From a virus: a stretch of DNA of 64,000 bases. The position numbers and the translations under genes are program-made. Position 1 is the stretch's first letter. Every line of letters starts with the position of its first letter. Positions 40,225 to 49,046 of the stretch are shown here, one piece after another. The stretch covers positions 1 to 64,000 of the IMG/VR virus record IMGVR_UViG_3300022843_000001; one strand, 5' to 3'. The notes under the pieces were generated by a model. It was not told where the DNA came from, did not search any database, and was given only the letters and a program-made list of their open reading frames with translations.

Positions 40225-41412
40225 TTAACCCTTTACACAAAGCACTTGTTTAATTTCATGTACAATCTCTACCAAATCGGCCTGAGCTGCCATTACATCA
40301 TCGATAGGTTTATACGCACTTGGAGTCTCGTCTATAATACCTTCGTCTATTCTACACTCCACACCACGAACTGCTTCTTCGTGTTGCTGCATAGTTACTA
40401 ATTTCTTCGCTTGGGTTCTGGACATAACCCGACCGGCGCCATGACTACAACTGTGGAAAGATTCCTTGTTTCCCAAGCCTTTAACTATGAATGATCTCTG
40501 TCCCATGCTACTTGGAATGATACCATATTGCCCTTTCTTAGCAGAAACCGCACCCTTTCGAGTAACCCACACATTTTCGTTGTAATGGTTTTCTTTCTGT
40601 ACATAGTTATGATGACAGTCAACAGTCAACTCATCTACCGTAAAAGGTTGTGTATGTTTTTCAAGCACTTCTAAAACATTTTTCATCATCAAAGCACGAT
40701 TCATCTTCGCGAATTCTTGTGCCCAGTCAACGGCTTCGATATATTGATCGAAGTAGGTCGAGTTTTCTGGTAAATATGCCAAGTCCTCGTCTGGCAAAGA
40801 AATAAAATACTTCTCCATTTCCAACTTTGCTTTCTCAATAAAGTATCTGCCAATAGCATTACCCACACCACGACTACCTGAATGTAGCATTACCCACACC
40901 GAATTGTCTGCTTTCTCGATACACACTTCGATGAAATGATTTCCACCACCCAAGGTGCCTAGATGAGCAATATTGTTTGTCTTCTCGACAGGGGCAAATT
41001 CACGCAAATTATCAAAGCCTGAACTTAAATGTTTATTCCAAGTATCGATAACTTCCTTGGGTAATTTCTGGACGTTATGTTTCCCTTGTCCTACAGGAAT
41101 CACCGCTTCAATGTCTAATCTCATCGATTTTAGGTTAAAAGGCAAGTCAGACGCAGTTAAAGACGTTTTAACGGCTTGCATGCCGCAGCCAAGGTCAACG
41201 CCAACTGCAGACGGGATAATCGCTTTTTTGGTGGCCAGAACTGTTCCTATAGCGCAACCTTTACCTAAGTGGGCATCAGGCATAGACGCAATCCATTTGT
41301 GTATGAATGGCATATCAGCAAGGTTCATTAATTGTTCTTTTGTGTTTTCCGCAAAATCAACACCATCACACCAAGCCTTTACTACATGGCCGCGGCCAGT
41401 TAAAACTTTCAT
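40225..41412 (-). CDS. rtcB: RtcB family RNA ligase (3'-phosphate/5'-OH)
   Basis: MPDAHLGKG, VGVDLGCG, LGTLGGGNHF, LHSGSRGVG, HHNY, RKGA, HGAGR, DETPSAYK. Confidence 0.97.
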   Translation of the reverse strand: MKVLTGRGHVVKAWCDGVDFAENTKEQLMNLADMPFIHKWIASMPDAHLGKGCAIGTVLATKKAIIPSAVGVDLGCGMQAVKTSLTASDLPFNLKSMRLDIEAVIPVGQGKHNVQKLPKEVIDTWNKHLSSGFDNLREFAPVEKTNNIAHLGTLGGGNHFIEVCIEKADNSVWVMLHSGSRGVGNAIGRYFIEKAKLEMEKYFISLPDEDLAYLPENSTYFDQYIEAVDWAQEFAKMNRALMMKNVLEVLEKHTQPFTVDELTVDCHHNYVQKENHYNENVWVTRKGAVSAKKGQYGIIPSSMGQRSFIVKGLGNKESFHSCSHGAGRVMSRTQAKKLVTMQQHEEAVRGVECRIDEGIIDETPSAYKPIDDVMAAQADLVEIVHEIKQVLCVKG

Positions 41413-41930
41413 TATTGTAACTCCTTTCCTATATTATTTTTGTTGAGACCTGCCGTATACCAAACAGGCACTGTATTAAATTTCCATGCAGCGAAGTAAC
41501 TTTTTTCTTCGACATAATACTTACGGTATGCATCGACAGCAGAAGTACCTTTGCAGTAATCTGGCATACACTGTGGCGGTTCGCGCCAACCTGCATCTGG
41601 AATACCTTTCGGTAATTTTCCAAGCAAGGTACCTAATTTTCTCCAAGACAAATGTACCTTGCCGTAACGTGCCGTGTATTGCTCCGAAAGGGATTGAAAC
41701 AAGTTATACATGTACATATATTGTTGCTTGTTTTCTCGCACCCATATAGTTGATGGGTGGTTTTTATGAGCGATTTTATATAGATCAGTTGATAATTCTG
41801 TACCTTCGTCGAGTATACGATGGGCAGTTGATAACATCTGTGCATATTCAAGAATCATTTTAACACAATGTTTGTCACAATGCATTGCTGCAGCAATCTC
41901 GTAATCATTGCTAAGATAAAATATATTCAT
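41412..41930 (-). CDS. Pyrimidine-dimer DNA glycosylase family protein (DenV-like)
   Basis: MNIFYL...HCDKHCVKMILEYAQMLSTAH; HKNHPS..W; PPQCMP; YRKYY. Confidence 0.8.
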   Translation of the reverse strand: MNIFYLSNDYEIAAAMHCDKHCVKMILEYAQMLSTAHRILDEGTELSTDLYKIAHKNHPSTIWVRENKQQYMYMYNLFQSLSEQYTARYGKVHLSWRKLGTLLGKLPKGIPDAGWREPPQCMPDYCKGTSAVDAYRKYYVEEKSYFAAWKFNTVPVWYTAGLNKNNIGKELQ

Positions 41931-41962
41931 AATTTAATTTGTTTCTCAATTTCAATACGTGT

Positions 41963-41991
41963 ATTATATCATAAGGTGGGGGTTGTGTCAA
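41963..41991 (-). promoter_or_regulatory. Early sigma70 promoter
   Basis: TTGACA-17-TATAAT; perfect palindrome GTTATATCGATATAAC at 42002-42017. Confidence 0.9.
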
Positions 41992-42037
41992 CAACTTAGT
42001 TGTTATATCGATATAACTGATAGTTATATGGGGGAAT

Positions 42038-42112
42038 TGGTGGGCATGCTAGGGTTCGAACCTAGGATAGCAGATTCAAAATCTGCCGTGTTTCCTACTA
42101 CACTACACGCCT
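42038..42112 (-). tRNA. tRNA-Gln(TTG)
   Basis: Cloverleaf, loop TTTTGAA, CCA encoded. Confidence 0.85.
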
Positions 42113-42131
42113 ATAATTAGAATATACAATT

Positions 42132-42204
42132 TGGCGCTCCCGATAGGACTCGAACCTATAAATTCCCAGCTTCGTAGGCCGAGTTGCATCCAGTTGCCGA
42201 GAGC
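42132..42204 (-). tRNA. tRNA-Arg(ACG), compact D-arm
   Basis: Loop CTACGAA, T-loop TTCGAGT, CCA. Confidence 0.75.
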
Positions 42205-42390
42205 ATAATTTAATAATTTTCGAATTTGCATTTATTGCAGTGGACGTGATGCCTATGGTCTTCTTTGTTTTTCTGGTCACAATTGGTTAGATTACCGGAC
42301 AAGCAATGAGGGCATATTTTACCTGCCTTCAATTTGTCTCGGAACTTTCTATGTTTACCGCTTCTATTAGACATTTCGTTTCCTATAAAT

Positions 42391-42480
42391 TGGCGGAAAG
42401 ATGAGGAGTCGAACCCCTAACGCTACTAACGTCACCACGGTATTCAACACCGTTTGCCGGCCTACCCAGCGGATCAATCC
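42391..42480 (-). tRNA. tRNA-Ser(TGA)
   Basis: Loop GTTGAAT, long variable arm, G73, CCA. Confidence 0.7.
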
Positions 42481-42490
42481 ATAATTTAAA

Positions 42491-42588
42491 ACTGTCTCAG
42501 GATCGTGCCTGATTAACTGGGTTAAGGACCCATTGCATTATTGCTGTGTCATAGTGCACTAATCACAGAAATTATTATGCTAAACAGT
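42491..42588 (-). ncRNA. Putative structured ncRNA in tRNA array
   Basis: Closing stem ACTGTTT/AGACAGT plus hairpins CTGTG/CACAG, TGGGT/ACCCA, CAGG/CCTG; no ORF, no anticodon arm. Confidence 0.55.
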
Positions 42589-42630
42589 GTGTTATAACAA
42601 GATTTTCTACTATATTCAGTAGATGTAATT

Positions 42631-42717
42631 TGGAAGAAGGTAGAGGTAACGATCCCCGAACGCTATAAACGATCCCTTGGGGTTCAAACCCAATTTGTGC
42701 CCAGCACGGTACCTTCC
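42631..42717 (-). tRNA. tRNA-Ser(TGA), second copy, compact D-arm
   Basis: Stem TTGGG/CCCAA, loop TTTGAAC, long variable arm, CCA. Confidence 0.65.
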
Positions 42718-42722
42718 ATTTT

Positions 42723-42796
42723 TGGTAGTCAATGTTGGAATTGAACCAACGTCTCAGGCATGTAAAACCTGTGCTAATCCCCTCAGCTAATCGACT
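42723..42796 (-). tRNA. tRNA-Val(TAC)
   Basis: Canonical cloverleaf, loop TTTACAT. Confidence 0.9.
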
Positions 42797-42801
42797 TTAA
42801 T

Positions 42802-42879
42802 TGGTGGGCCGAGAGGGTCACGATCCCTCTCTCTCCAAATTATGAGTTTGTTGCTTTCCCAGTTAAGCTGTACCAGCCG
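42802..42879 (-). tRNA. tRNA-Met/Ile2(CAT), aberrant 5' end
   Basis: Loop CTCATAA, intact T-arm and CCA; 5' acceptor strand overlaps 3' end of an upstream tRNA remnant. Confidence 0.5.
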
Positions 42880-42950
42880 AGGGATTGAACCTCGTATTGG
42901 ATATCAAAGTGACGCCTTGACAATAATATCCTAGCAAACCATGCGCTGGC
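42871..42950 (-). pseudogene. Degenerate tRNA remnant overlapping the CAT tRNA
   Basis: Acceptor GCCAGC/GCTGGT and T-arm GAGG-TTCAATC-CCTC but no valid anticodon arm. Confidence 0.45.
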
Positions 42951-42955
42951 ATTGA

Positions 42956-43026
42956 TGGTGGTGAGCCTAGGTATCGAACCTAACTGATCTGAGATATGAA
43001 CTCTGATTGGTCCCTGACCGCCCACC
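42956..43026 (-). tRNA. tRNA-Met(CAT), compact D-arm
   Basis: Loop TTCATAT, T-loop TTCGATA, CCA. Confidence 0.7.
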
Positions 43027-43033
43027 ATAAAAG

Positions 43034-43123
43034 TGGAGGAAGACGCTGAAATTGAATCAGACACACATTTCTGGTGCGATTTGTTTAGCAAACAATCCTA
43101 GTCACCAGACTAGATCATCTTCC
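43034..43123 (-). tRNA. tRNA-Ser(GCT)
   Basis: Loop TTGCTAA, long variable arm, CCA. Confidence 0.75.
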
Positions 43124-43128
43124 GAAAA

Positions 43129-43199
43129 TGGCGACCCGATAAGGAATTGAACCTTACAAGACAACGTTTGGAGTGTCGTCACCGCCCAGCGGCCGAGCC
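43129..43199 (-). tRNA. tRNA-Trp(CCA), compact D-arm
   Basis: Loop CTCCAAA, G73, CCA. Confidence 0.75.
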
Positions 43200-43204
43200 A
43201 ATAT

Positions 43205-43280
43205 TGGAGGCAAATAAGAGAATCAAACTCTTCAATAACGAATTTGCAATTCGCACCCGTCATCAGCTGGGTCATCTGCC
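43205..43280 (-). tRNA. tRNA-Cys(GCA)
   Basis: Loop TTGCAAA, U73 discriminator. Confidence 0.85.
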
Positions 43281-43287
43281 GTAAAAT

Positions 43288-43359
43288 TGGTGGAGAATAT
43301 CGGTAACGATCCGATCCATCGACATTGCAAATGTCAAGTCTATCCCATACAGATTCCCC
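43288..43359 (-). tRNA. tRNA-Ala(TGC), compact D-arm
   Basis: Loop TTTGCAA; G3:U70 identity pair. Confidence 0.85.
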
Positions 43360-43457
43360 AAATTTGGTGGACCTTTTAAGAAGGTAGCCGAACCTTTATT
43401 CTATCGCGTGTTCCATATTACACCACATGCCGGACTCGAACCGGATCTCTAAGAATT

Positions 43458-43543
43458 TGGTGGTAGTGGAAGGATTCGAACCCTCAATGACTAGCATACC
43501 TGCGGGTTACAGCCGCGTACCCTTCCTAATGGGTGTCACTACC
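43458..43543 (-). tRNA. tRNA-Tyr(GTA)
   Basis: Loop CTGTAAC, long variable arm, CCA; 5' end overlaps endonuclease stop. Confidence 0.85.
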
Positions 43544-44077
43544 TTTGTTTCTTTTCAATGTTCTAGTTGCATTGGTCACCGTTGCGGCACAACTAGAACT
43601 ACAATATTTGTTCTTTCGTTTTTTATAAGATATAGCATCATGACAATATTCACATATCTTAGGAGATTCTTTATATATAGCTTGAGTCTTATAATGTCGG
43701 GCATTAGCTTTTTCTGATGCCCCATTTTCATTAGCTATGCGCATTGCCTTTTGATTTTTAAGTTTTCTCAATTTCTCATTAGAGTTGATATAGTCCCATC
43801 CACCAGAACCACCTAATTTTAGGTTATAGGTATTAGATTCAGCAATGAAATCAAGATTAACAATTTCAGATTCCTTGTTAAACATTTCCTCTGGGTTGTC
43901 ATAAACGAATAAGATTTCTTTTGTGAATTTGTCTAATCCATGTTTGTCCTGAGCGTATTTTAAGTATTTTCCAGAACCCATATAATTGTCGTTCAAATTT
44001 TTGGTCTTATGTGTTCCAATATAGAACTTGCCATTGATTTGATTTGAAATCTTATAAACAGTGTATTTTATTTCCAT
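43526..44077 (-). mobile_element. GIY-YIG homing endonuclease in tRNA array (SegB-like position)
   Basis: [24 protein letters not shown]; C-terminal CxxC..CSSSC zinc finger. Confidence 0.9.
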
Positions 44078-44082
44078 ACATC

Positions 44083-44090
44083 TATTTATA
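44083..44090 (-). promoter_or_regulatory. Late promoter, 5 nt before endonuclease ATG
   Basis: TATAAATA GATGT ATG. Confidence 0.75.
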
Positions 44091-44117
44091 ATATTTCGAG
44101 TCTTGACTTCGACTCAA

Positions 44118-44191
44118 GGGAGCAGGTAGGGATAATCGAAATCCACTCAGCACGGCTTGGAAGGCCGGCGACTCACCTCGAGCTTACCTGC
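44118..44191 (-). tRNA. tRNA-Gly(TCC), ends CCC not CCA
   Basis: Loop CTTCCAA, U73. Confidence 0.75.
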
Positions 44192-44203
44192 AAAAATAAA
44201 ACA

Positions 44204-44299
44204 CACGACAGACAGAGGGCGATAACAAATGGGCTTTAACGATATATCAGCATCATCCCTGCCGCACCTCGACGGCTTTTCTCTACTTCATCTGTCGTG
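44204..44299 (-). ncRNA. Putative structured ncRNA in tRNA array
   Basis: Perfect 9-bp closing stem CACGACAGA/TCTGTCGTG enclosing AGAG/CTCT, AGGG/CCCT, GCCG/CGGC helices. Confidence 0.55.
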
Positions 44300-44305
44300 C
44301 ATATT

Positions 44306-44377
44306 TGGTAGCGGAAAGAGGACTTGAACCTCTGCTTCACAGGTTATGAGCCTGGAATGCAACCGTTGCGTTCCGCG
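44306..44377 (-). tRNA. tRNA-fMet-like (CAT), compact D-arm
   Basis: C1:U72 mismatch, loop CTCATAA, CCA. Confidence 0.75.
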
Positions 44378-44384
44378 TTAAAAA

Positions 44385-44449
44385 GGTCGAGAGCGCAGGA
44401 CTTGAACCTGACTATGATTCCCGTATAGGGACTTAACATTGTACTCTCT
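44385..44449 (-). pseudogene. Degenerate tRNA remnant
   Basis: T-arm CAGG-TTCAAGT-CCTG and GAGAG/CTCTC acceptor but broken D and anticodon arms. Confidence 0.45.
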
Positions 44450-44517
44450 ATAAATTGGCGGCAAACTTTCCATTCGCCTTGCTGATCACCTTGTACAAAG
44501 TGGTAGCATCTACATGT

Positions 44518-44593
44518 TGGCGACCCTTACGAGTTTTGATCTCGTTGCCTCCACCTTGACAGGGTGGCGCTCTCCCGATTGAGCTAAAGGGTC
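44518..44593 (-). tRNA. tRNA-Asp(GTC)
   Basis: Canonical, loop CTGTCAA, G73. Confidence 0.92.
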
Positions 44594-44611
44594 TTAATTT
44601 AAAATATTCTG

Positions 44612-44771
44612 TCAGGATGGTTGGACTCGAACCATCCATCTAAAGCATTTAGTCAGGACGGCTGGATTCGAACCAGCGTCTCCGCGTTCCAAACGCGGTA
44701 CTAAACCAAGCTCAGCTACGCCCGGACTAAATGCTCTATAAACGTGACTTACCAAGCTAACCTACACCCTG
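44612..44771 (-). pseudogene. Outer tRNA-Pro-like shell interrupted in its anticodon arm
   Basis: CAGGGTG/CATCCTG acceptor, AGCTTGGT D-loop, TTCGAGT T-loop flank an inserted tRNA. Confidence 0.7.
44653..44725 (-). tRNA. tRNA-Pro(TGG), nested; CCA not encoded
   Basis: Stem CCGCG/CGCGG, loop TTTGGAA, T-arm GCTGG-TTCGAAT-CCAGC. Confidence 0.85.
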
Positions 44772-44788
44772 ACACAATATTCTAAATT

Positions 44789-44864
44789 TGGTGCGTCCTC
44801 GAGGAATCGAACCTCGTTATCTGGTTCTTCAAACCAGCGCATTGACCACAACTGCCTAAGACGC
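44789..44864 (-). tRNA. tRNA-Phe(GAA)
   Basis: Loop TTGAAGA, CCA. Confidence 0.88.
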
Positions 44865-44869
44865 GTAAT

Positions 44870-44944
44870 TGGAGCCCCTAGTCGGAATCGAACCAACTTA
44901 TCCGGATTACAAAACCGGTGCATCACCTTTTATGCTTTAGGGGC
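44870..44944 (-). tRNA. tRNA-Thr(TGT)
   Basis: Loop TTTGTAA, CCA. Confidence 0.9.
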
Positions 44945-44948
44945 GTTT

Positions 44949-45103
44949 TGGCATTCCCGATAGGACTCGAACCCTGAACTTGACTTTAGAAGAATCGTGT
45001 GATTTCCAGTTTTACCATACACGCATTATTTGTTATCATGTAATATACACGTTACCTTATATCGACTTATTGCAACGTGCCTATCCAATTAGACTACGGG
45101 AAC
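44949..45103 (-). pseudogene. Chimeric/interrupted tRNA-Arg locus (outer acceptor pair plus inner Arg(TCT) body)
   Basis: GTTCCCG (45103) pairs with CGGGAAT-G-CCA; inner GCGTGTA..CTTCTAA..T-loop lacks its own 3' acceptor strand. Confidence 0.6.
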
Positions 45104-45147
45104 ATTAAATTGCACAGTAACATTGCTGTTGTTACTGTTTTAAAAAT

Positions 45148-45224
45148 TGGCTCCAAACCTAGGCTACGATCCTAGCACGCTTGCATTAACAGTGCAATGC
45201 CCCCACCTAGAGGGCCCGTTTGGA
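45148..45224 (-). tRNA. tRNA-Asn(GTT)
   Basis: Loop CTGTTAA, G73, CCA. Confidence 0.88.
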
Positions 45225-45300
45225 ATAAATTGGCTCAACCGTATTTTTTTATAAGGCAGCTGAGTTCCTCCTTAGATGATTTACAATTTTTTTTCTACGA

Positions 45301-45546
45301 TCAAGAGTTCGAACTCAAAGAAAGTTTATAAAAATTGTTGCTGCAGCACTGACATCTCAGTTGAATCGTAAGAATACTTTTTGATGGTGATCTGCAAACC
45401 ATATGCAGCGTTATTACCATTAAAAAGTAATCTTTGATTGTTTTCTTAAAATTTGACTTACCCTTTCGAGTATAATCTTTTTTCTTGTCACGCATTACAA
45501 CAGACTTGTTATAAGTACGAGCATGTTTTGCCACTGGATTTTTCAT
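45301..45546 (-). CDS. ArfA-like small basic protein (candidate alternative ribosome rescue factor)
   Basis: AGGAGG SD 6 nt upstream; MKNPVAKHARTYNKSVVMRDKKKDYTRKGK resembles ArfA NxxAxxL..F/Y..V..KK..YxRKGK; internal hairpin 45375-45429. Confidence 0.55.
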   Translation of the reverse strand: MKNPVAKHARTYNKSVVMRDKKKDYTRKGKSNFKKTIKDYFLMVITLHMVCRSPSKSILTIQLRCQCCSNNFYKLSLSSNS

Positions 45547-45549
45547 CCC

Positions 45550-45705
45550 GTTCCTCCTATGAAAGATTAATAAAGGCATCTGATTGGCTGCCCAGCAACT
45601 GAGCACTCGCACCAATCATATCCTCGCGGTGATTCTATCATCAAATAGTTAGCGAATCACCGCTTTGTATATTCTAATTTATTGAAGATCATTCATCAGA
45701 GGAAC
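45550..45705 (-). ncRNA. Structured 5' leader / ncRNA upstream of ArfA-like ORF
   Basis: Closing GTTCCTC/GAGGAAC overlapping SD; 10-bp GCGGTGATTC/GAATCACCGC and 7-bp TGATTGG/CCAATCA hairpins. Confidence 0.5.
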
Positions 45706-45737
45706 ACCCCGATGTATTTCTTATTTCTTATACATGT

Positions 45738-45766
45738 ATTATAACATGGTTTTTCGAACTTGTCAA
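45738..45766 (-). promoter_or_regulatory. Sigma70 promoter
   Basis: TTGACA-17-TATAAT. Confidence 0.85.
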
Positions 45767-45820
45767 TCTTTTTTCTTAATTTTCTTTATAATTAATTGTT
45801 ATATCGTTATAATTATAAAG

Positions 45821-45849
45821 AAAATTAAGGCCTGATTTGCAGGCCTTAA
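45821..45849 (-). terminator. Rho-independent terminator-like hairpin
   Basis: TTAAGGCCTG/CAGGCCTTAA 10-bp stem then T-tract. Confidence 0.65.
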
Positions 45850-45957
45850 CCATATCTTATGTCGTCTTCTTCTATATTTTTCTATTTTTCAACTAAAGGA
45901 ATTCTTAATTCTTGATTCTTGATCAGCATTTACAAATTCCCAATTTCCTATACATTC

Positions 45958-45986
45958 ATTATAACAGGATTTAGTACCTGTGTCAA
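45958..45986 (-). promoter_or_regulatory. Sigma70 promoter
   Basis: TTGACA-17-TATAAT. Confidence 0.8.
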
Positions 45987-46216
45987 CAACTAATTGCAAT
46001 ATTCTTATAATTAGATTCAGTACTTATCGTAGTGAACTAATGATATCAGCGATGGAAGCGGGTTTAGCTTGACTGTACGTCTTTACAGCATATTCATAAT
46101 TATTATCAAGCATTTTTGCTACATCATTCTCATTGTTTCCCCATTTTAATAACAATTTAGTTACCTTGGATTTGAATTTATTCTGTATCATAATATTTCT
46201 CAATTTCTATACATGT

Positions 46217-46245
46217 ATTATACCATAGTCCCGGCAATATGTCAA
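46217..46245 (-). promoter_or_regulatory. Sigma70 promoter
   Basis: TTGACA-17-TATAAT; palindrome at 46276-46290. Confidence 0.85.
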
Positions 46246-46292
46246 CAACTAATTTCAGTTTAGTTAGAACTTATGGTTATATCGATATAATT

Positions 46293-46366
46293 TGGTTCTC
46301 AATGATGGTAACGATCCACCGTCGTTCGGTTATCAGCCGAATGCTCTACCTTTGAGCTAATCGAGA
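46293..46366 (-). tRNA. tRNA-Ile(GAT)
   Basis: Canonical, loop CTGATAA. Confidence 0.92.
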
Positions 46367-46391
46367 ATAATTTCTCATTTCCTATACATTT

Positions 46392-46420
46392 ATTATAACA
46401 GGATTTTGTGCCTATGTCAA
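46392..46420 (-). promoter_or_regulatory. Sigma70 promoter
   Basis: TTGACA-17-TATAAT. Confidence 0.8.
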
Positions 46421-46445
46421 CCTTTATTTTTAATTTATTCAGTCC

Positions 46446-46479
46446 AAAAAAAACCCCAATCTGTGAAGAGTTGGGGTTT
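46446..46479 (-). terminator. Rho-independent terminator
   Basis: AAACCCCAA/TTGGGGTTT stem then T-tract. Confidence 0.75.
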
Positions 46480-46668
46480 GGTATTCTTGAATATGGTTTT
46501 TATATCAAGTTATACTTTCCCCAAGCCAATATCGGCCATGCTCGCCCAATTGCCGCGATCATTGATCGTCGGATATTGAATCGATATAAACTGTTGTCTT
46601 AGGGAAGTCATTTTGCTCATTAATTTTGGTTATGTATTATATATACAAGTTTTGTGCTTAATCTAAAT

Positions 46669-47112
46669 TTATTTTAAACTAAATGATTCACCACATCCAC
46701 ATGCCTGTCCTGCCAGTGGATTGTTAAATGTCAAGCCAGACTCGAATAGTTTCTTAACGTAGTCAACTTCCATTCCATCGATAAACAATATAGATTTCTT
46801 ATCAACAAATATAGACACGCCGTCATGAGCATCCGTGAACTTGTAATCATATTCATCAGGCGTCTCCACGAATTCAACCAGATATTGATAACCACCACAA
46901 CCAGCACCTTCTACACCAAATCGAACTCCTATAGTCTCGATTCCACGGTTATCAATCTCCCATTTGATAAATTGTGATGCATCTTTGGTTAATGTCAAAC
47001 CCACAACCTCAAGTTTTTGTGCAGGTATATTGAAATTTATGTCTGGCTCGATATTCACGATATCTCTGCTTGCTTTGCGGACTGCAGCATAGTAATGTGC
47101 TTTCTGATCCAC
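46669..47112 (-). CDS. iscA: Fe-S cluster assembly A-type carrier (IscA/ErpA/HesB family)
   Basis: RFGVEGAGCGGYQY, VDKKSILFIDGMEVDY, FNNP..ACGCGESF. Confidence 0.92.
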   Translation of the reverse strand: MDQKAHYYAAVRKASRDIVNIEPDINFNIPAQKLEVVGLTLTKDASQFIKWEIDNRGIETIGVRFGVEGAGCGGYQYLVEFVETPDEYDYKFTDAHDGVSIFVDKKSILFIDGMEVDYVKKLFESGLTFNNPLAGQACGCGESFSLK

Positions 47113-47276
47113 CTCATAAACATAATGGCCCGATCTGAGGCCATTAATGAAGCGCCGCCCACATCAGCAATAGGTACTGGGAAATTAAAACCACAAGCAG
47201 TAGAGTACCACAATTCCCCTTCTCTGTAATATTGGAAGGTTACTTGCTTGTTCTTGACCATGTCTTTGATATTCAT
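47055..47276 (-). CDS. Conserved phage hypothetical protein (start MNIKDMVK)
   Basis: VTFQYYREGELWY..GFNFPVPIADVG..MFMRWIRK. Confidence 0.6.
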   Translation of the reverse strand: MNIKDMVKNKQVTFQYYREGELWYSTACGFNFPVPIADVGGASLMASDRAIMFMRWIRKHITMLQSAKQAEIS

Positions 47277-47301
47277 AATATTTCCTGTTTCCTGTTTAAA
47301 A

Positions 47302-47378
47302 TGGTACGTCGAGCGGGAGTCGAACCCGCAACATCTGGATTTTAAGTCCAGCGCCTCTGCCAATTGGACCACCGACGC
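47302..47378 (-). tRNA. tRNA-Leu(TAA), short variable loop
   Basis: Loop CTTAAAA, A73. Confidence 0.88.
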
Positions 47379-47384
47379 ATAATT

Positions 47385-47462
47385 TGGTACCACCACTCGG
47401 ATTCGAACCGAGACATTAACTACTTTTGAAACAGTCCCCTCTGCCAATTGGGGTATGGTGGT
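47385..47462 (-). tRNA. tRNA-Leu(CAA), short variable loop
   Basis: Loop TTCAAAA. Confidence 0.8.
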
Positions 47463-47489
47463 ATTATTCTAACCTAAGTCAGATTAATT

Positions 47490-47564
47490 TGGTGTCTCTA
47501 GGGGGAATCGAACCCCCTACTCTTGGGTGAAAGCCAAGTGATCTAACCGGTAATCCATAGAGAC
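47490..47564 (-). tRNA. tRNA-Glu(TTC)
   Basis: Loop CTTTCAC. Confidence 0.9.
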
Positions 47565-47570
47565 GTAAAA

Positions 47571-47646
47571 TGGTGGGTCCACAGAGATTCGAACTCTGAT
47601 AACCGGATTAAAAGTCCGGGATAATTGCCCTTTATATTATGGACCC
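47571..47646 (-). tRNA. tRNA-Lys(TTT)
   Basis: Loop CTTTTAA. Confidence 0.9.
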
Positions 47647-47682
47647 AGGTCCGCTTTGTTATCGTGTAGCGTTCACGCATTT

Positions 47683-47765
47683 TGGTACGAGGAGAGGGAC
47701 TCGAACCCTCAAAGGCCTGGTTTCTAAAACCAGTAGATCTGCCAATTCTCATTAGCCACCCTCGC
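47683..47765 (-). tRNA. tRNA-Leu(TAG), enlarged D-loop
   Basis: Stem CTGGT/ACCAG, loop TTTAGAA. Confidence 0.8.
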
Positions 47766-48024
47766 ATTAAATCCTCAACTTATTAAGTTGTTTTTCTTTT
47801 TCTATATCGTAGACGGTTGCGGCAAGCGTAAGCAGTCCCGCGGTTATTATCAACTCCCATCATCAAATTAGTGATCTCATTAAATACAGCAACTGGCACC
47901 TCGCCATTATCCATAATATGACTATTGGCAAGTTTACCTTTACCCATCTTACGAAGATGTTGCATTTTGACCTTAATCATAACGGGCATTGTTTTCCATA
48001 TAACCATCATACTATTCTCTTATT

Positions 48025-48102
48025 TGGTACATCTGACGGGGATCGAACCCGCATTTCCCTGATTGAAAGTCAAGTTGCCTATTCCAGTTAGCAGACAGAT
48101 GT
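48025..48102 (-). tRNA. tRNA-Glu(TTC), second copy
   Basis: Loop CTTTCAA. Confidence 0.8.
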
Positions 48103-48122
48103 ATAATTCTTTTAATATATTT

Positions 48123-48198
48123 TGGGGTGTAATCTGGGTTTCGAACCCAACCCTCATGAGTCACAGTCATGCATGCTTCCAATTACACCTATCACACC
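48123..48198 (-). tRNA. tRNA-His(GTG)
   Basis: G-1:C73, loop CTGTGAC, CCA. Confidence 0.92.
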
Positions 48199-48218
48199 CC
48201 AAAATATATTCTACCCAT

Positions 48219-48249
48219 AAAAAAACCCGCGATATTTCTATGGCGGGTT
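48219..48249 (-). terminator. Rho-independent terminator
   Basis: AACCCGC/GCGGGTT stem then T-tract. Confidence 0.7.
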
Positions 48250-48283
48250 AACGTTGTCTCTTATTATAAGTTTGTTACTTTCT

Positions 48284-48358
48284 TTAAGACAATGCATCCC
48301 CGCTACACAATTTCTCGTGTTTTAAGAGTTGTTCTAGTTTTAAAATTAATGTTTTCAT
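48284..48358 (-). CDS. Candidate 24-aa late peptide MKTLILKLEQLLKHEKLCSGDALS
   Basis: TATAAATA (48364-48371) 5 nt upstream of ATG, terminator downstream. Confidence 0.35.
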   Translation of the reverse strand: MKTLILKLEQLLKHEKLCSGDALS

Positions 48359-48395
48359 ATGTTTATTTATACGTTTTATTATTTAATATATAGTT

Positions 48396-48424
48396 ATTAT
48401 AACAGGTTTTTACACCTTTGTCAA
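48396..48424 (-). promoter_or_regulatory. Sigma70 promoter
   Basis: TTGACA-17-TATAAT. Confidence 0.8.
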
Positions 48425-48427
48425 CCT

Positions 48428-48664
48428 TTATTTTGGTGCTTCGTGAGACCAACCCATATCTTTCATTTTTAGATGATCTGCTTTAACCTTTGCCATTTTG
48501 CTTTTTCCTGTCTTAGGGTCATACATCATGTGCGGCTCAAAATCATCTTCTTTGACACATTTATTAACCATCTTACCTTTGTTCTTTCCAGTACCGTCCT
48601 GCTTACCGTCTTTCTTATAGCCGTCCCAGCAATCTTGTTCTCTAAAAAATTTAAATGTTTTCAT
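48428..48664 (-). CDS. Small putative internal head protein
   Basis: MKTFKFFRE N-terminus; CWDGYKK..KCVKE motif. Confidence 0.65.
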   Translation of the reverse strand: MKTFKFFREQDCWDGYKKDGKQDGTGKNKGKMVNKCVKEDDFEPHMMYDPKTGKSKMAKVKADHLKMKDMGWSHEAPK

Positions 48665-48665
48665 A

Positions 48666-49046
48666 TCATACCTTAATTTTAGGGTCGTTAGACTTAAAGT
48701 CTTTCTTTCTCATGATAGTCTTTGTGACCATCTCTTTATCTTTTGGACGTGCGTTTATGACAAACGGTATGTTTACATCGTTTGCAACATCATTAATAAC
48801 TGCCTCGAAATTGTCTGGAAAGTCTGCCATAGATTTTCCCATTTTTTTCCAAGCTTTTCTGAACAGACTTATTAACTCTGCAGCAGTAATGGGTTTTCCA
48901 TTTCTCTCATCATTCATTCTGTCGGCGAAATGTCGTGTAAAAGATACATCGATGTTTGCCTTTTTAAACAACTTGTCGGCAAACTTCTCTACCTGATTAA
49001 GTTGATCTTGAGTTATTTCTTCGTTAAAGTTTTTAAAGGATTTCAT
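48666..49046 (-). CDS. Putative internal head protein
   Basis: MKSFKNFNEE N-terminus; late promoter 49052-49059; FTRHFADRMND..VTKTIMRKKDF. Confidence 0.7.
   Translation of the reverse strand: MKSFKNFNEEITQDQLNQVEKFADKLFKKANIDVSFTRHFADRMNDERNGKPITAAELISLFRKAWKKMGKSMADFPDNFEAVINDVANDVNIPFVINARPKDKEMVTKTIMRKKDFKSNDPKIKV

What the first reader, a model, noticed from the sequence alone, without database searches (positions are those of the whole stretch)
45301..45546. Phage ArfA-like ribosome-rescue factor with an arfA-style 3' hairpin and hydrophobic tail
Seen: a perfect AGGAGG SD precedes MKNPVAKHARTYNKSVVMRDKKKDYTRKGK...; starting exactly at codon 40 the mRNA forms a ~20-bp imperfect hairpin (45375-45429: TACTTTTT/AAAAAGTA, ATGGT/ACCAT, CTGCA/TGCAG) encoding a hydrophobic FLMVITLHMVC tail. 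Established: E. coli ArfA has the pattern NAIxAL..F..V..KKGKGSYxRKGKH, and its mRNA carries an RNase III hairpin after the functional domain so active truncated ArfA is made from a non-stop mRNA only when tmRNA is limiting; the full-length hydrophobic tail destabilises it. Inference: the phage may carry a tmRNA-sensing backup rescue factor inside its tRNA array, alongside RtcB, to keep ribosomes running when host nucleases cut tRNA/mRNA.
Basis: partly seen in the sequence, partly recalled or inferred. Interest (0 to 1): 0.8.

Follow-up and report, generated by a model that had tools for sequence, protein, structure and literature searches.

The report
Phage ArfA-like rescue peptide with hairpin
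A 199-kb T4-like phage carries, inside its tRNA gene cluster, a tiny gene for a basic peptide that is a distant relative of the bacterial ribosome-rescue factor ArfA, and a conserved RNA hairpin inside the gene probably makes its message stop-less as in bacterial arfA, though no function has been tested.

Summary
The ORF at 45301-45546 (-), its AGGAGG site and the hairpin over codons 38-59 are all there. The hairpin folds at -21.8 kcal/mol (z -5.3).

The peptide is not a Pfam ArfA (PF03889). It belongs to DUF7230 (PF23876, E 2.9e-10), a family with no known function. Direct profile comparison with bacterial ArfA gives no signal. Phage-borne true ArfAs (KGKGSY type) bridge the two families: hhalign E 4.6e-4 over 35 columns.

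The strongest functional evidence is gene design:
- Chromosomal DUF7230 genes of Gammaproteobacteria carry a strong hairpin or intrinsic terminator inside the ORF, after a Y-x-R-K-x-K-H motif. They end in ArfA-like hydrophobic or -AA tails.
- The window's hairpin recurs in a diverged relative, with four compensatory base-pair changes, while the encoded tail is not conserved.
- Two other phage lineages have the gene next to a phage tmRNA.

Caveats:
- 34 of 40 distinct stand-alone phage homologues have no strong hairpin before their stop.
- The module also occurs fused to huge phage proteins.

This scan has noted ArfA-like DUF7230 peptides before on other DNA (25 notes). Verdict: a probable ArfA-like rescue factor (about 0.6). 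The stop-less regulation is plausible but not shown.

The parts
45738..45766 (-). Perfect sigma-70 promoter (TTGACA-17-TATAAT with TG) about 190 nt upstream of the ATG
   Evidence: 12 of 12 matches. L001 has an equivalent TTGACA...TATAAT upstream of its copy.
45547..45737 (-). Long 5' leader. No Rfam family found. Not studied further here.
Evidence: no Rfam hit in 45300-45740.
45553..45558 (-). Shine-Dalgarno AGGAGG, 6 nt before the ATG
45448..45546 (-). Codons 1-33: the conserved DUF7230 module (NPVAKHaRxYNKxxVxRDkKKDYxRKGK), the presumed functional peptide
   Evidence: Pfam PF23876 E 2.9e-10 on residues 2-30. Alignments A1 and A3. Conservation ends at about residue 33-38.
45370..45434 (-). 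Imperfect hairpin of about 22 bp over codons 38-59 (outer pairs reach 45364-45439). Proposed site where the mRNA is cut or trimmed so that it lacks a stop codon.
   Evidence: Fold: -21.8 kcal/mol, z -5.25. The homologous hairpin in L001 has 4 compensatory and 1 one-sided change and no broken pair.
45304..45426 (-). Codons 41-81: a non-conserved, partly hydrophobic tail (FLMVITLHMVC...), probably not part of the active peptide
   Evidence: The tail differs completely from L001's and is offset by a 14-nt indel. The close relative L073 stops at codon 39.
45301..45303 (-). Stop codon TGA, 67 nt downstream of the hairpin foot
45226..45290 (-). Conserved spacer with a second AAGGAGGAAC between the ORF and tRNA-Asn. 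No terminator was found here, so read-through into the tRNAs is likely.
   Evidence: conserved in L001 3309-3370
45148..45224 (-). tRNA-Asn(GUU), the first of five downstream tRNAs on the same strand. Its 5' processing would give the mRNA a free 3' end.
   Evidence: Synteny is kept in L001/L071.

Best explanation
The ORF is a real phage gene for a small basic peptide of the DUF7230 family. I read this family as a stripped-down sister of ArfA.

Proposed action (inferred). The first 33-40 residues bind a ribosome stalled at the 3' end of a broken mRNA. The basic C-terminal half (RDKKKDYTRKGK) lies in the empty mRNA channel. The N-terminal half (NPVAKHARTY-NKSVV) recruits a host class-I release factor, which frees the peptide.

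Proposed regulation (inferred). The gene is transcribed from its own strong promoter into the downstream tRNAs. The conserved hairpin over codons 38-59 is where the message is cut (RNase III type) or where 3' trimming stops after tRNA processing. The stop codon 67 nt further on is lost either way. The peptide would then be made from a stop-less mRNA and would escape tmRNA tagging mainly when host trans-translation is saturated. This is the design of bacterial arfA and brfA.

Shown: gene, family, hairpin, its conservation, and the family-wide design in bacteria. Inferred: ribosome binding, release-factor recruitment, cleavage, tmRNA dependence.
For: (1) Family. PF23876 E 2.9e-10. There are 71 IMG/VR loci and 10 genome loci with relatives.

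(2) Link to ArfA.
- Phage proteins that all pass PF03889 (13 of 13) begin NPVAK..RTP[KR]Y and align to the window's peptide over 35 columns (hhalign E 4.6e-4, prob 33%).
- The unselected set of 45 phage ArfAs gives score 15.0 against a permuted mean of 7.7 (sd 1.55); 0 of 100 permutations reach it.
- The NPxA-type phage ArfAs (26 of the 45) match bacterial ArfA at E 1e-16.

(3) arfA-like design in chromosomal DUF7230 genes. These sit in housekeeping neighbourhoods (mnmG, serS, lolA).
- Intrinsic terminators lie inside the ORF in L014 and L026 and L025.
- Stems of 13-19 bp lie inside the ORF or over the stop codon in L009-L013 and L019-L021.
- In 7 of the 13 tailed genes this is the strongest hairpin of the whole locus. 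By the same test the figure for true arfA loci is 17 of 25.
- The tails end like ArfA tails: ERYQIAA against ArfA ESYQIAA.

(4) The window's hairpin is selected as RNA. Against L001 it shows 4 compensatory changes, 1 one-sided change and no broken pair, while the encoded tail diverges with a frame-shifting indel. Further in-ORF hairpins occur in L228, L229, L086 and L116.

(5) The mature length fits. The close relative L073 stops at codon 39, exactly at the hairpin foot. Stand-alone homologues are mostly 33-45 aa.

(6) Context. The gene lies within a tRNA array, with RtcB about 4 kb downstream. tRNAs lie within 2.5 kb in 12 of 60 viral loci. A permuted tmRNA lies within 2 kb in L094/L095 and L130.

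(7) The five DUF7230-bearing genomes tested have no PF03889 ArfA. The phage has no tmRNA and no RF-domain gene of its own.
Against: - There is no match to PF03889 and none to any solved structure, including ArfA and BrfA entries.
- Profiles of DUF7230 and bacterial ArfA score no better than column-permuted controls.
- The ArfA hallmark KGKGS is absent. This copy has KS where most relatives have KH.
- The bridge through phage ArfAs is modest (prob 33%). My best local score used a subset chosen by an N-terminal regex, which is partly circular.
- 34 of 40 distinct stand-alone phage homologues have no strong hairpin before their stop.
- The module is also fused to 450-880-aa phage proteins at the N-terminus, the C-terminus or internally. 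That fits a tail-threading mechanism poorly unless those proteins are processed.
- ArfB-like genes occur in 2-3 of 13 DUF7230-bearing genomes against about 25 of 60 background genomes, so complementarity is not shown.
- The hairpin is AU-rich with no U-tract, so it is not a terminator.
Confidence: 0.6

Rival explanations
1. The peptide is ArfA-like, but the hairpin has nothing to do with stop-less translation. It would be an ordinary processing or stabilising element that separates the mRNA from the downstream tRNA precursors, either as an RNase III or RNase E site or as a 3' protective stem. The ORF simply runs on by chance after loss of the ancestral stop at codon 39. An 81-aa product or a normally terminated product is made constitutively.
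For: - 34 of 40 stand-alone phage homologues have no strong hairpin before their stop.
- L073 has its stop exactly where the hairpin starts in the window.
- At 39% GC, an open run of 42 codons after a lost stop has a chance of about 0.06 (my estimate from base composition).
- The gene is followed by tRNAs that need processing anyway.
Against: - Two diverged lineages (window and L001), plus L228, L229, L086 and L116, keep the frame open through the hairpin.
- Chromosomal relatives that have no tRNA downstream show the same placement, and some have true terminators inside the ORF.
Confidence: 0.22
2. DUF7230 peptides bind the ribosomal mRNA channel but do not rescue. They would act as inhibitors or modulators, for example by blocking host trans-translation or SmpB, shutting off host translation, or parking ribosomes.
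For: - The peptide has a basic tail like other channel binders. No motif known to contact a release factor has been verified.
- The fusions to large phage proteins, which may be injected, would suit a host-takeover effector.
Against: - Chromosomal copies sit in housekeeping neighbourhoods and carry a self-limiting non-stop design. That fits a backup rescue factor and is hard to reconcile with a toxin.
- The aligned ArfA positions include the aromatic residue and the following strand that contact RF2 in ArfA (role of F25 from PMC6299226).
Confidence: 0.1
3. The peptide is a general nucleic-acid-binding basic module, such as an RNA or DNA chaperone or a virion-internal polycation. Its resemblance to ArfA would then be a matter of composition.
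For: - The sequence is rich in K and R.
- The module occurs in long K-rich proteins.
- Direct comparison with bacterial ArfA is at chance level.
Against: - Highly specific, non-compositional motifs are conserved (N-P-V-A-K-H, F-N-K, D-[RK]-K-K).
- The alignment to phage ArfAs beats column-permuted controls of the same composition.
- The in-ORF terminators of the bacterial members have no place in this reading.
Confidence: 0.06

Closest known systems
ArfA (YhdL, Pfam PF03889) of Gamma- and Betaproteobacteria, the RF2-dependent alternative ribosome-rescue factor
   Same: - Small size.
- Order of elements: N-x-[IV]-A/K, then an aromatic residue, then V-rich strand, then a basic stretch, then Y-x-R-K-x-K.
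- A hairpin inside the ORF after the functional part.
- A non-conserved hydrophobic tail.
- Chromosomal DUF7230 relatives share ArfA-like -AA tail endings and in-ORF hairpins.
- Phage-borne ArfAs bridge the two families.
   Different: - No PF03889 match.
- KGKGS is replaced by (R)D(K/R)KKD.
- Two residues are missing before the aromatic position.
- The roughly 13-residue N-terminal extension of ArfA is absent.
- There is no H after the last K in this copy.
- The hairpin is AU-rich.
- The gene is phage-borne and feeds into a tRNA operon.
BrfA (YqkK) of Bacillus subtilis
   Same: A small RF2-dependent rescue factor made from a stop-less mRNA, because a structure (a terminator) lies inside the ORF (PMC8012679, PMC6881298). 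The chromosomal DUF7230 genes L014, L025 and L026 use exactly this device.
   Different: No sequence similarity. The DUF7230 profile finds no BrfA chain in the PDB at E up to 10. BrfA is restricted to Bacillus and has a helical N-terminus.
ArfT of Francisella tularensis
   Same: A rescue factor of about 40 aa with an ordinary stop codon that is not regulated by truncation (PMC6299226). In size and expression mode it matches the majority of phage DUF7230 genes.
   Different: ArfT belongs to the KGG-repeat stress-protein family (PMC6514570) and has a KKGGSTNKK tail. It shares no motif with DUF7230.
Phage-borne ArfA homologues (KGKGSY type) in IMG/VR, e.g. L209, L213, L223
   Same: They begin M-x-x-NPVAK-x-x-RT like the window's peptide. 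They are 33-50 aa, some with hydrophobic tails. hhalign E 4.6e-4 over 35 columns.
   Different: They keep KGKGSY and the P-[KR] before the aromatic residue, and they pass Pfam ArfA (13 of 13). The window's peptide does not.

Membership tests
ArfA (Pfam PF03889) | Match to the family profile above the gathering score | tested here: not met
   hmmscan at E up to 10 lists only PF23876. The same holds for five chromosomal relatives.
ArfA (Pfam PF03889) | Conserved KGKGS(Y) motif that lies in the mRNA channel | tested here: not met
   The window has RDKKKDY at the aligned place. No DUF7230 member in A1 or A3 has KGKGS.
ArfA (Pfam PF03889) | Detectable homology to ArfA by profile-profile comparison | tested here: inconclusive
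   Against bacterial ArfA there is no signal above permuted controls. Against phage ArfAs: E 4.6e-4, prob 33%, 35 columns. Against the unselected phage set: score 15.0 versus a permuted mean of 7.7 (sd 1.55), with 0 of 100 permutations reaching it.
ArfA (Pfam PF03889) | Aromatic residue plus strand that contacts RF2 (F25 region), then Y-x-R-K-x-K(H) | tested here: inconclusive
   Y12 followed by NKSVV, and then Y25-T-R-K-G-K, align to those positions. The H is missing in this copy.
ArfA/BrfA-type regulation (stop-less mRNA) | Stable RNA structure inside the ORF, after the functional part and before the stop codon | tested here: met
   The hairpin covers codons 38-59 (z -5.25) and is conserved with 4 compensatory changes. 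The same placement is seen in chromosomal relatives.
ArfA/BrfA-type regulation (stop-less mRNA) | Transcript actually truncated before the stop, and product controlled by tmRNA | not testable with these tools
   No RNA run holds this phage. This needs 3' end mapping and ssrA genetics.
DUF7230 (Pfam PF23876) | Match above the gathering score (27 bits) | tested here: met
   40.5 bits, E 2.9e-10, residues 2-30; 42.1 bits in the genome search.
RF-dependent rescue factor (functional class) | Stimulates RF1/RF2 hydrolysis on non-stop ribosomes; synthetic lethality with ssrA | not testable with these tools
Phyletic complementarity with ArfA and ArfB is inconclusive.

The most novel reading that the evidence does not exclude
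DUF7230 is an unrecognised, widespread branch of ArfA-type, release-factor-dependent ribosome-rescue factors.
- It is chromosomal in several gammaproteobacterial lineages (for example Methylococcales and Cellvibrionaceae), with the full stop-less-mRNA autoregulation.
- It is carried by many phages, often beside tRNA arrays, RtcB or even a phage tmRNA.
- Phages would use it to keep ribosomes free when host defence nucleases or phage-induced mRNA decay flood the cell with broken messages.
- This phage would have kept the tmRNA-sensing hairpin version.
Probability: 0.5. Interest if true: 0.8.

Novelty: new variant of a known kind. Interest (0 to 1): 0.62.

Why it matters
Alternative ribosome-rescue factors (ArfA, ArfT, BrfA) are tiny and lineage-restricted. 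Each was found by a genetic screen, and reviews expect more to exist that sequence searches miss (PMC8012679).

If DUF7230 peptides are rescue factors:
- Rescue is a function that phages bring along, together with tRNAs, RNA ligase and sometimes tmRNA.
- The arfA trick of a stop-less message has been kept or re-used in phages and in bacteria that lack ArfA.
- A Pfam family of unknown function gets a testable role.
- Phage counter-measures to RNA-cutting defences become easier to study.

I found no paper in the searchable library that mentions DUF7230 or phage-borne ArfA.

Tried and rejected
- Sequencing runs: no RNA holder is listed. Only salt-lake DNA metagenomes hold the stretch.
- Megablast of the locus against GenBank phages: no match.
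- NCBIfam: no family.
- PHROGs: only families of unknown function.
- PDB sequence searches with the protein and with the family profile: only chance hits.
- Rfam on 41000-49000: nothing in the gene, leader or hairpin.
- Direct hhalign and HMM cross-searches of DUF7230 against bacterial ArfA: at the level of permuted or shuffled controls.
- Phyletic complementarity:
  - ArfA is too rare in the sampled Gammaproteobacteria (5 of 400) to test.
  - The ArfB comparison is not significant.
- Locus-internal ranking of the window's hairpin is uninformative, because the surrounding tRNAs fold more strongly. The shuffle z-score was used instead.
- ArfT as the family was rejected. It has a KGG-type tail and no shared motif.
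- ESM Atlas look-alikes of a chromosomal member point to viral clusters that are partly PF03889, at score 0.80-0.81. This is a lead only, at chance-prone level. The second Atlas call failed.
- A paper hit for 'ArfA homolog' in an enterococcal phage preprint proved irrelevant in its current version.

Full report
**What is there**

The window is the first 64 kb of a complete 198,785-bp virus record with direct terminal repeats. It is a distant T4-like phage:
- The gp8 baseplate protein is present.
- The topoisomerase is 44% identical to that of Aeromonas T4-like phages.
- The DNA is held only by salt-lake metagenomes.

The ORF lies on the minus strand at 45546-45301. It has 81 codons and a perfect AGGAGG 6 nt before the ATG. 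A 12-of-12 sigma-70 promoter with TG lies at 45766-45738. No terminator was found between the gene and tRNA-Asn (45224-45148), which is followed by tRNAs Thr, Phe, Pro and Asp on the same strand. RtcB lies at 40225-41412.

The hairpin is real. It folds at -21.8 kcal/mol against -8.9 for shuffles (z -5.25, 0 of 200 shuffles as good). It spans codons 38-59.

**Family**

Pfam places residues 2-30 in DUF7230 (PF23876, E 2.9e-10) and gives no ArfA hit. NCBIfam has nothing, PHROGs has only unknowns, and the PDB has nothing.

Relatives are short. The conserved part is N-x-V-A-K-H-a-R-x-[YF]-N-K-a-x-V-x-R-D-[RK]-K-[KN]-D-Y-x-R-K-x-K(H). Similarity ends at about residue 33-38.

The family occurs in three settings:
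- 71 IMG/VR loci.
- A few isolated phages of Xanthomonas and Vibrio.
- 10 of 400 sampled gammaproteobacterial genomes. There it lies between housekeeping genes such as mnmG, moxR, lolA, rarA, crcB and serS, so it is chromosomal and not prophage-borne.

**Is it ArfA?**

By direct tests, no.
- PF03889 does not match.
- hhalign and HMM cross-searches between DUF7230 and 29 bacterial ArfAs fetched here score like column-permuted or shuffled controls.
- Against a single ArfA, only the Y-x-R-K-x-K-H stretch aligns, at E 0.058.

Phages also carry true ArfAs. At least 49 IMG/VR loci encode KGKGSY proteins, and all 13 that I scanned pass PF03889. Of the 45 distinct ones, 26 begin NP[VIM]AK..RTP[KR][YF], which is the DUF7230 N-terminus.

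The tool's hhalign of A1 (first row is the window's peptide) against these phage ArfAs (A6) aligns 35 columns at E 4.6e-4, prob 33%. The pairing is MKNPVAKHART--YNKSVVMRD-KKKDYTRKGKSN over MHNPVAKDVRTPKYRQRVVKPRKGKGSYSRKEKYN.

Further comparisons:
- The unselected phage ArfA set scores 15.0 against a permuted mean of 7.7 (sd 1.55); 0 of 100 permutations reach it.
- The regex-selected subset gave E 6e-5. That choice is partly circular, and I do not lean on it.
- The same NPxA-type subset matches bacterial ArfA at E 1e-16.
- Four of the 13 phage ArfAs show DUF7230 as a weak second family.

My reading is that DUF7230 is a sister of ArfA reached through phage intermediates. The evidence is suggestive, not proof. 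Compared with ArfA, DUF7230 has lost KGKGS, lacks two residues before the aromatic position, and lacks ArfA's N-terminal extension.

**Gene design in the chromosomal relatives**

This is the strongest functional argument.
- In the bacterial members the ORF does not stop after the basic motif. It runs through a strong RNA structure.
- L014 and L026 have intrinsic terminators inside the ORF, and L025 has one by folding.
- L009, L011 and L019 have 13-17-bp stems wholly inside the ORF.
- L010, L012, L013, L020 and L021 have the stop codon inside the stem-loop, with energies of -27.6 to -50.9 kcal/mol.
- In 7 of 13 such genes this is the strongest hairpin of the whole 3-6-kb locus. The same test on true arfA loci gives 17 of 25.
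- The tails are hydrophobic or end in -AA, -QA or -SA like ArfA tails. DUF7230 in L010 and L012 ends ERYQIAA, and ArfA in L060 and L061 ends ESYQIAA.

A structure inside the ORF that yields a stop-less mRNA is the hallmark of arfA (hairpin, RNase III) and brfA (terminator) (PMC8012679).

**The window's hairpin**

The relative in L001/L071 has an identical protein for 31 residues and then diverges. It has an 18-bp stem at the same codons.

Over the 14 pairs that are homologous in both, 9 are unchanged, 4 changed on both sides (T-A to A-T twice, T-A to G-C, G-C to T-A), 1 changed on one side and still pairs, and none is broken. Meanwhile the loop and tail diverge with a 14-nt indel that shifts the frame. 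Selection therefore acts on the RNA, not on the tail peptide.

The still closer relative L073 (91% identical over residues 1-33) has its stop codon at codon 39, exactly at the foot of the hairpin position. It then continues with another gene. So about 38 residues suffice for the protein.

Other in-ORF hairpins occur in independent lineages:
- L228, a T4-like phage, with a 15-bp stem right after KHKG.
- L229, a GC-rich stem followed by a U-rich tract.
- L086 and L116.

**Limits**
- Among 40 distinct stand-alone viral genes, only 6 have a strong hairpin inside the ORF or over the stop. The other 34 have no strong hairpin before their stop. Most phages would therefore make the peptide constitutively, and the window shows a minority design.
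- The module is also fused to 450-880-aa K-rich phage proteins of unknown function.
- Phyletic complementarity could not be shown. None of five DUF7230-bearing genomes has ArfA, but ArfA is rare in the sample (5 of 400). ArfB-like genes occur in 2-3 of 13 DUF7230-bearing genomes against about 25 of 60 background genomes.

**Context that supports a translation-rescue role**
- The phage has 21 tRNAs, no tmRNA and no RF-domain gene, so the peptide would have to use host release factors.
- Twelve of 60 viral DUF7230 loci have tRNAs within 2.5 kb.
- In two independent lineages (L094/L095 and L130) a permuted tmRNA lies within 2 kb.

**Mechanism proposed**

The promoter drives a transcript through the gene into the tRNAs. 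Either RNase III cuts the roughly 22-bp stem, or RNase P release of tRNA-Asn exposes a 3' end that exonucleases trim back to the stem. Either way the stop codon at 45301-45303, 67 nt beyond the stem, is lost.

Ribosomes would then run to the end of the message. tmRNA would tag and destroy the product unless trans-translation is saturated. In that case the peptide of about 40-59 aa accumulates and frees stalled ribosomes with a host release factor. Every step after transcription is inference.

**Novelty**

No paper in the library mentions DUF7230 or phage-borne ArfA. Earlier agents of this scan reached similar readings on other genomes. I re-tested the ArfA link independently. It is weaker than their wording suggests, but it is supported through phage intermediates.

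Noticed in passing
L094 2501-2610 and 4404-4831 (also L095): A DUF7230 gene sits inside a 9-tRNA array with a permuted tmRNA 1.9 kb downstream (RF04321, 105 bits). The ORF is interrupted at a run of eight A (2557-2564). Read in the adjacent frame from that run, the full motif ...DYSRKGKSKWKLEKHS appears. This could be a sequencing error, slippage or a programmed shift. It is identical in two metagenomes.
   Followed up: partly
L130 1649-1774 and 3231-3606: A second phage lineage has a DUF7230 gene 1.5 kb upstream of a phage-borne permuted tmRNA (RF04321, 79 bits).
   Followed up: partly
L081, L083, L088, L096, L105, L110, L112 (N-terminal); L114 (C-terminal); L104, L120 (internal): The DUF7230 module is fused to K-rich phage proteins of 450 to over 880 aa. 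They carry repeated ESVEQVDE-like linkers and a CWDGYK..KKKGGK..PNCVP motif. Pfam finds nothing beyond DUF7230, apart from a weak sub-threshold HNH_3 hit in L105. They may be processed polyproteins or polyvalent injected proteins.
   Followed up: partly
window 45226-45290 (-): A block of about 60 nt between the ORF's stop and tRNA-Asn is conserved in L001 (3309-3370). It holds a second copy of AAGGAGGAAC, the same words as the gene's own ribosome-binding site. Its function is unknown.
   Followed up: no
IMG/VR loci L179-L227: True ArfA homologues (KGKGSY; 13 of 13 scanned pass PF03889) are common in phage contigs. Several have hydrophobic tails (L223-L227, L202, L221). I found no paper reporting phage-borne ArfA.
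   Followed up: partly
window 43038-43123, 44310-44376, 42394-42481 (-): Rfam finds tRNA-like matches that ARAGORN did not call. The first scores 45 bits on the tRNA-Sec model, just under its cut-off, and is probably a long-arm tRNA. The array may hold more tRNAs than the 17 listed.
   Followed up: no
window 46669-47112 (-): An IscA/HesB-type Fe-S cluster biosynthesis protein (PF01521, E 1e-16) is encoded inside the tRNA array. Its position just upstream of the DUF7230 gene is the same in L001-L006.
   Followed up: no
window 45738-46245 (-): Three perfect TTGACA-17-TATAAT promoters, each with an extended -10 TG, lie within 500 nt (46245, 45986, 45766). Each precedes a short gene or a tRNA.
   Followed up: no
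L231 244-470: A DUF7230 ORF ends at TAG (it was called as 74 aa only with TAG read as Q). The stop lies at the foot of a 21-bp stem that encloses a T-arm-like GGTTCGATTCC (z -4.6).
   Followed up: no
G001 C1:493778-494026 (L148); G002 C7:66663-66899: Two of the DUF7230-bearing Gammaproteobacteria also carry a PrfH-like, RF-H type release-factor paralogue (open frames of about 240 aa; GPGGQ seen in L148).
   Followed up: no
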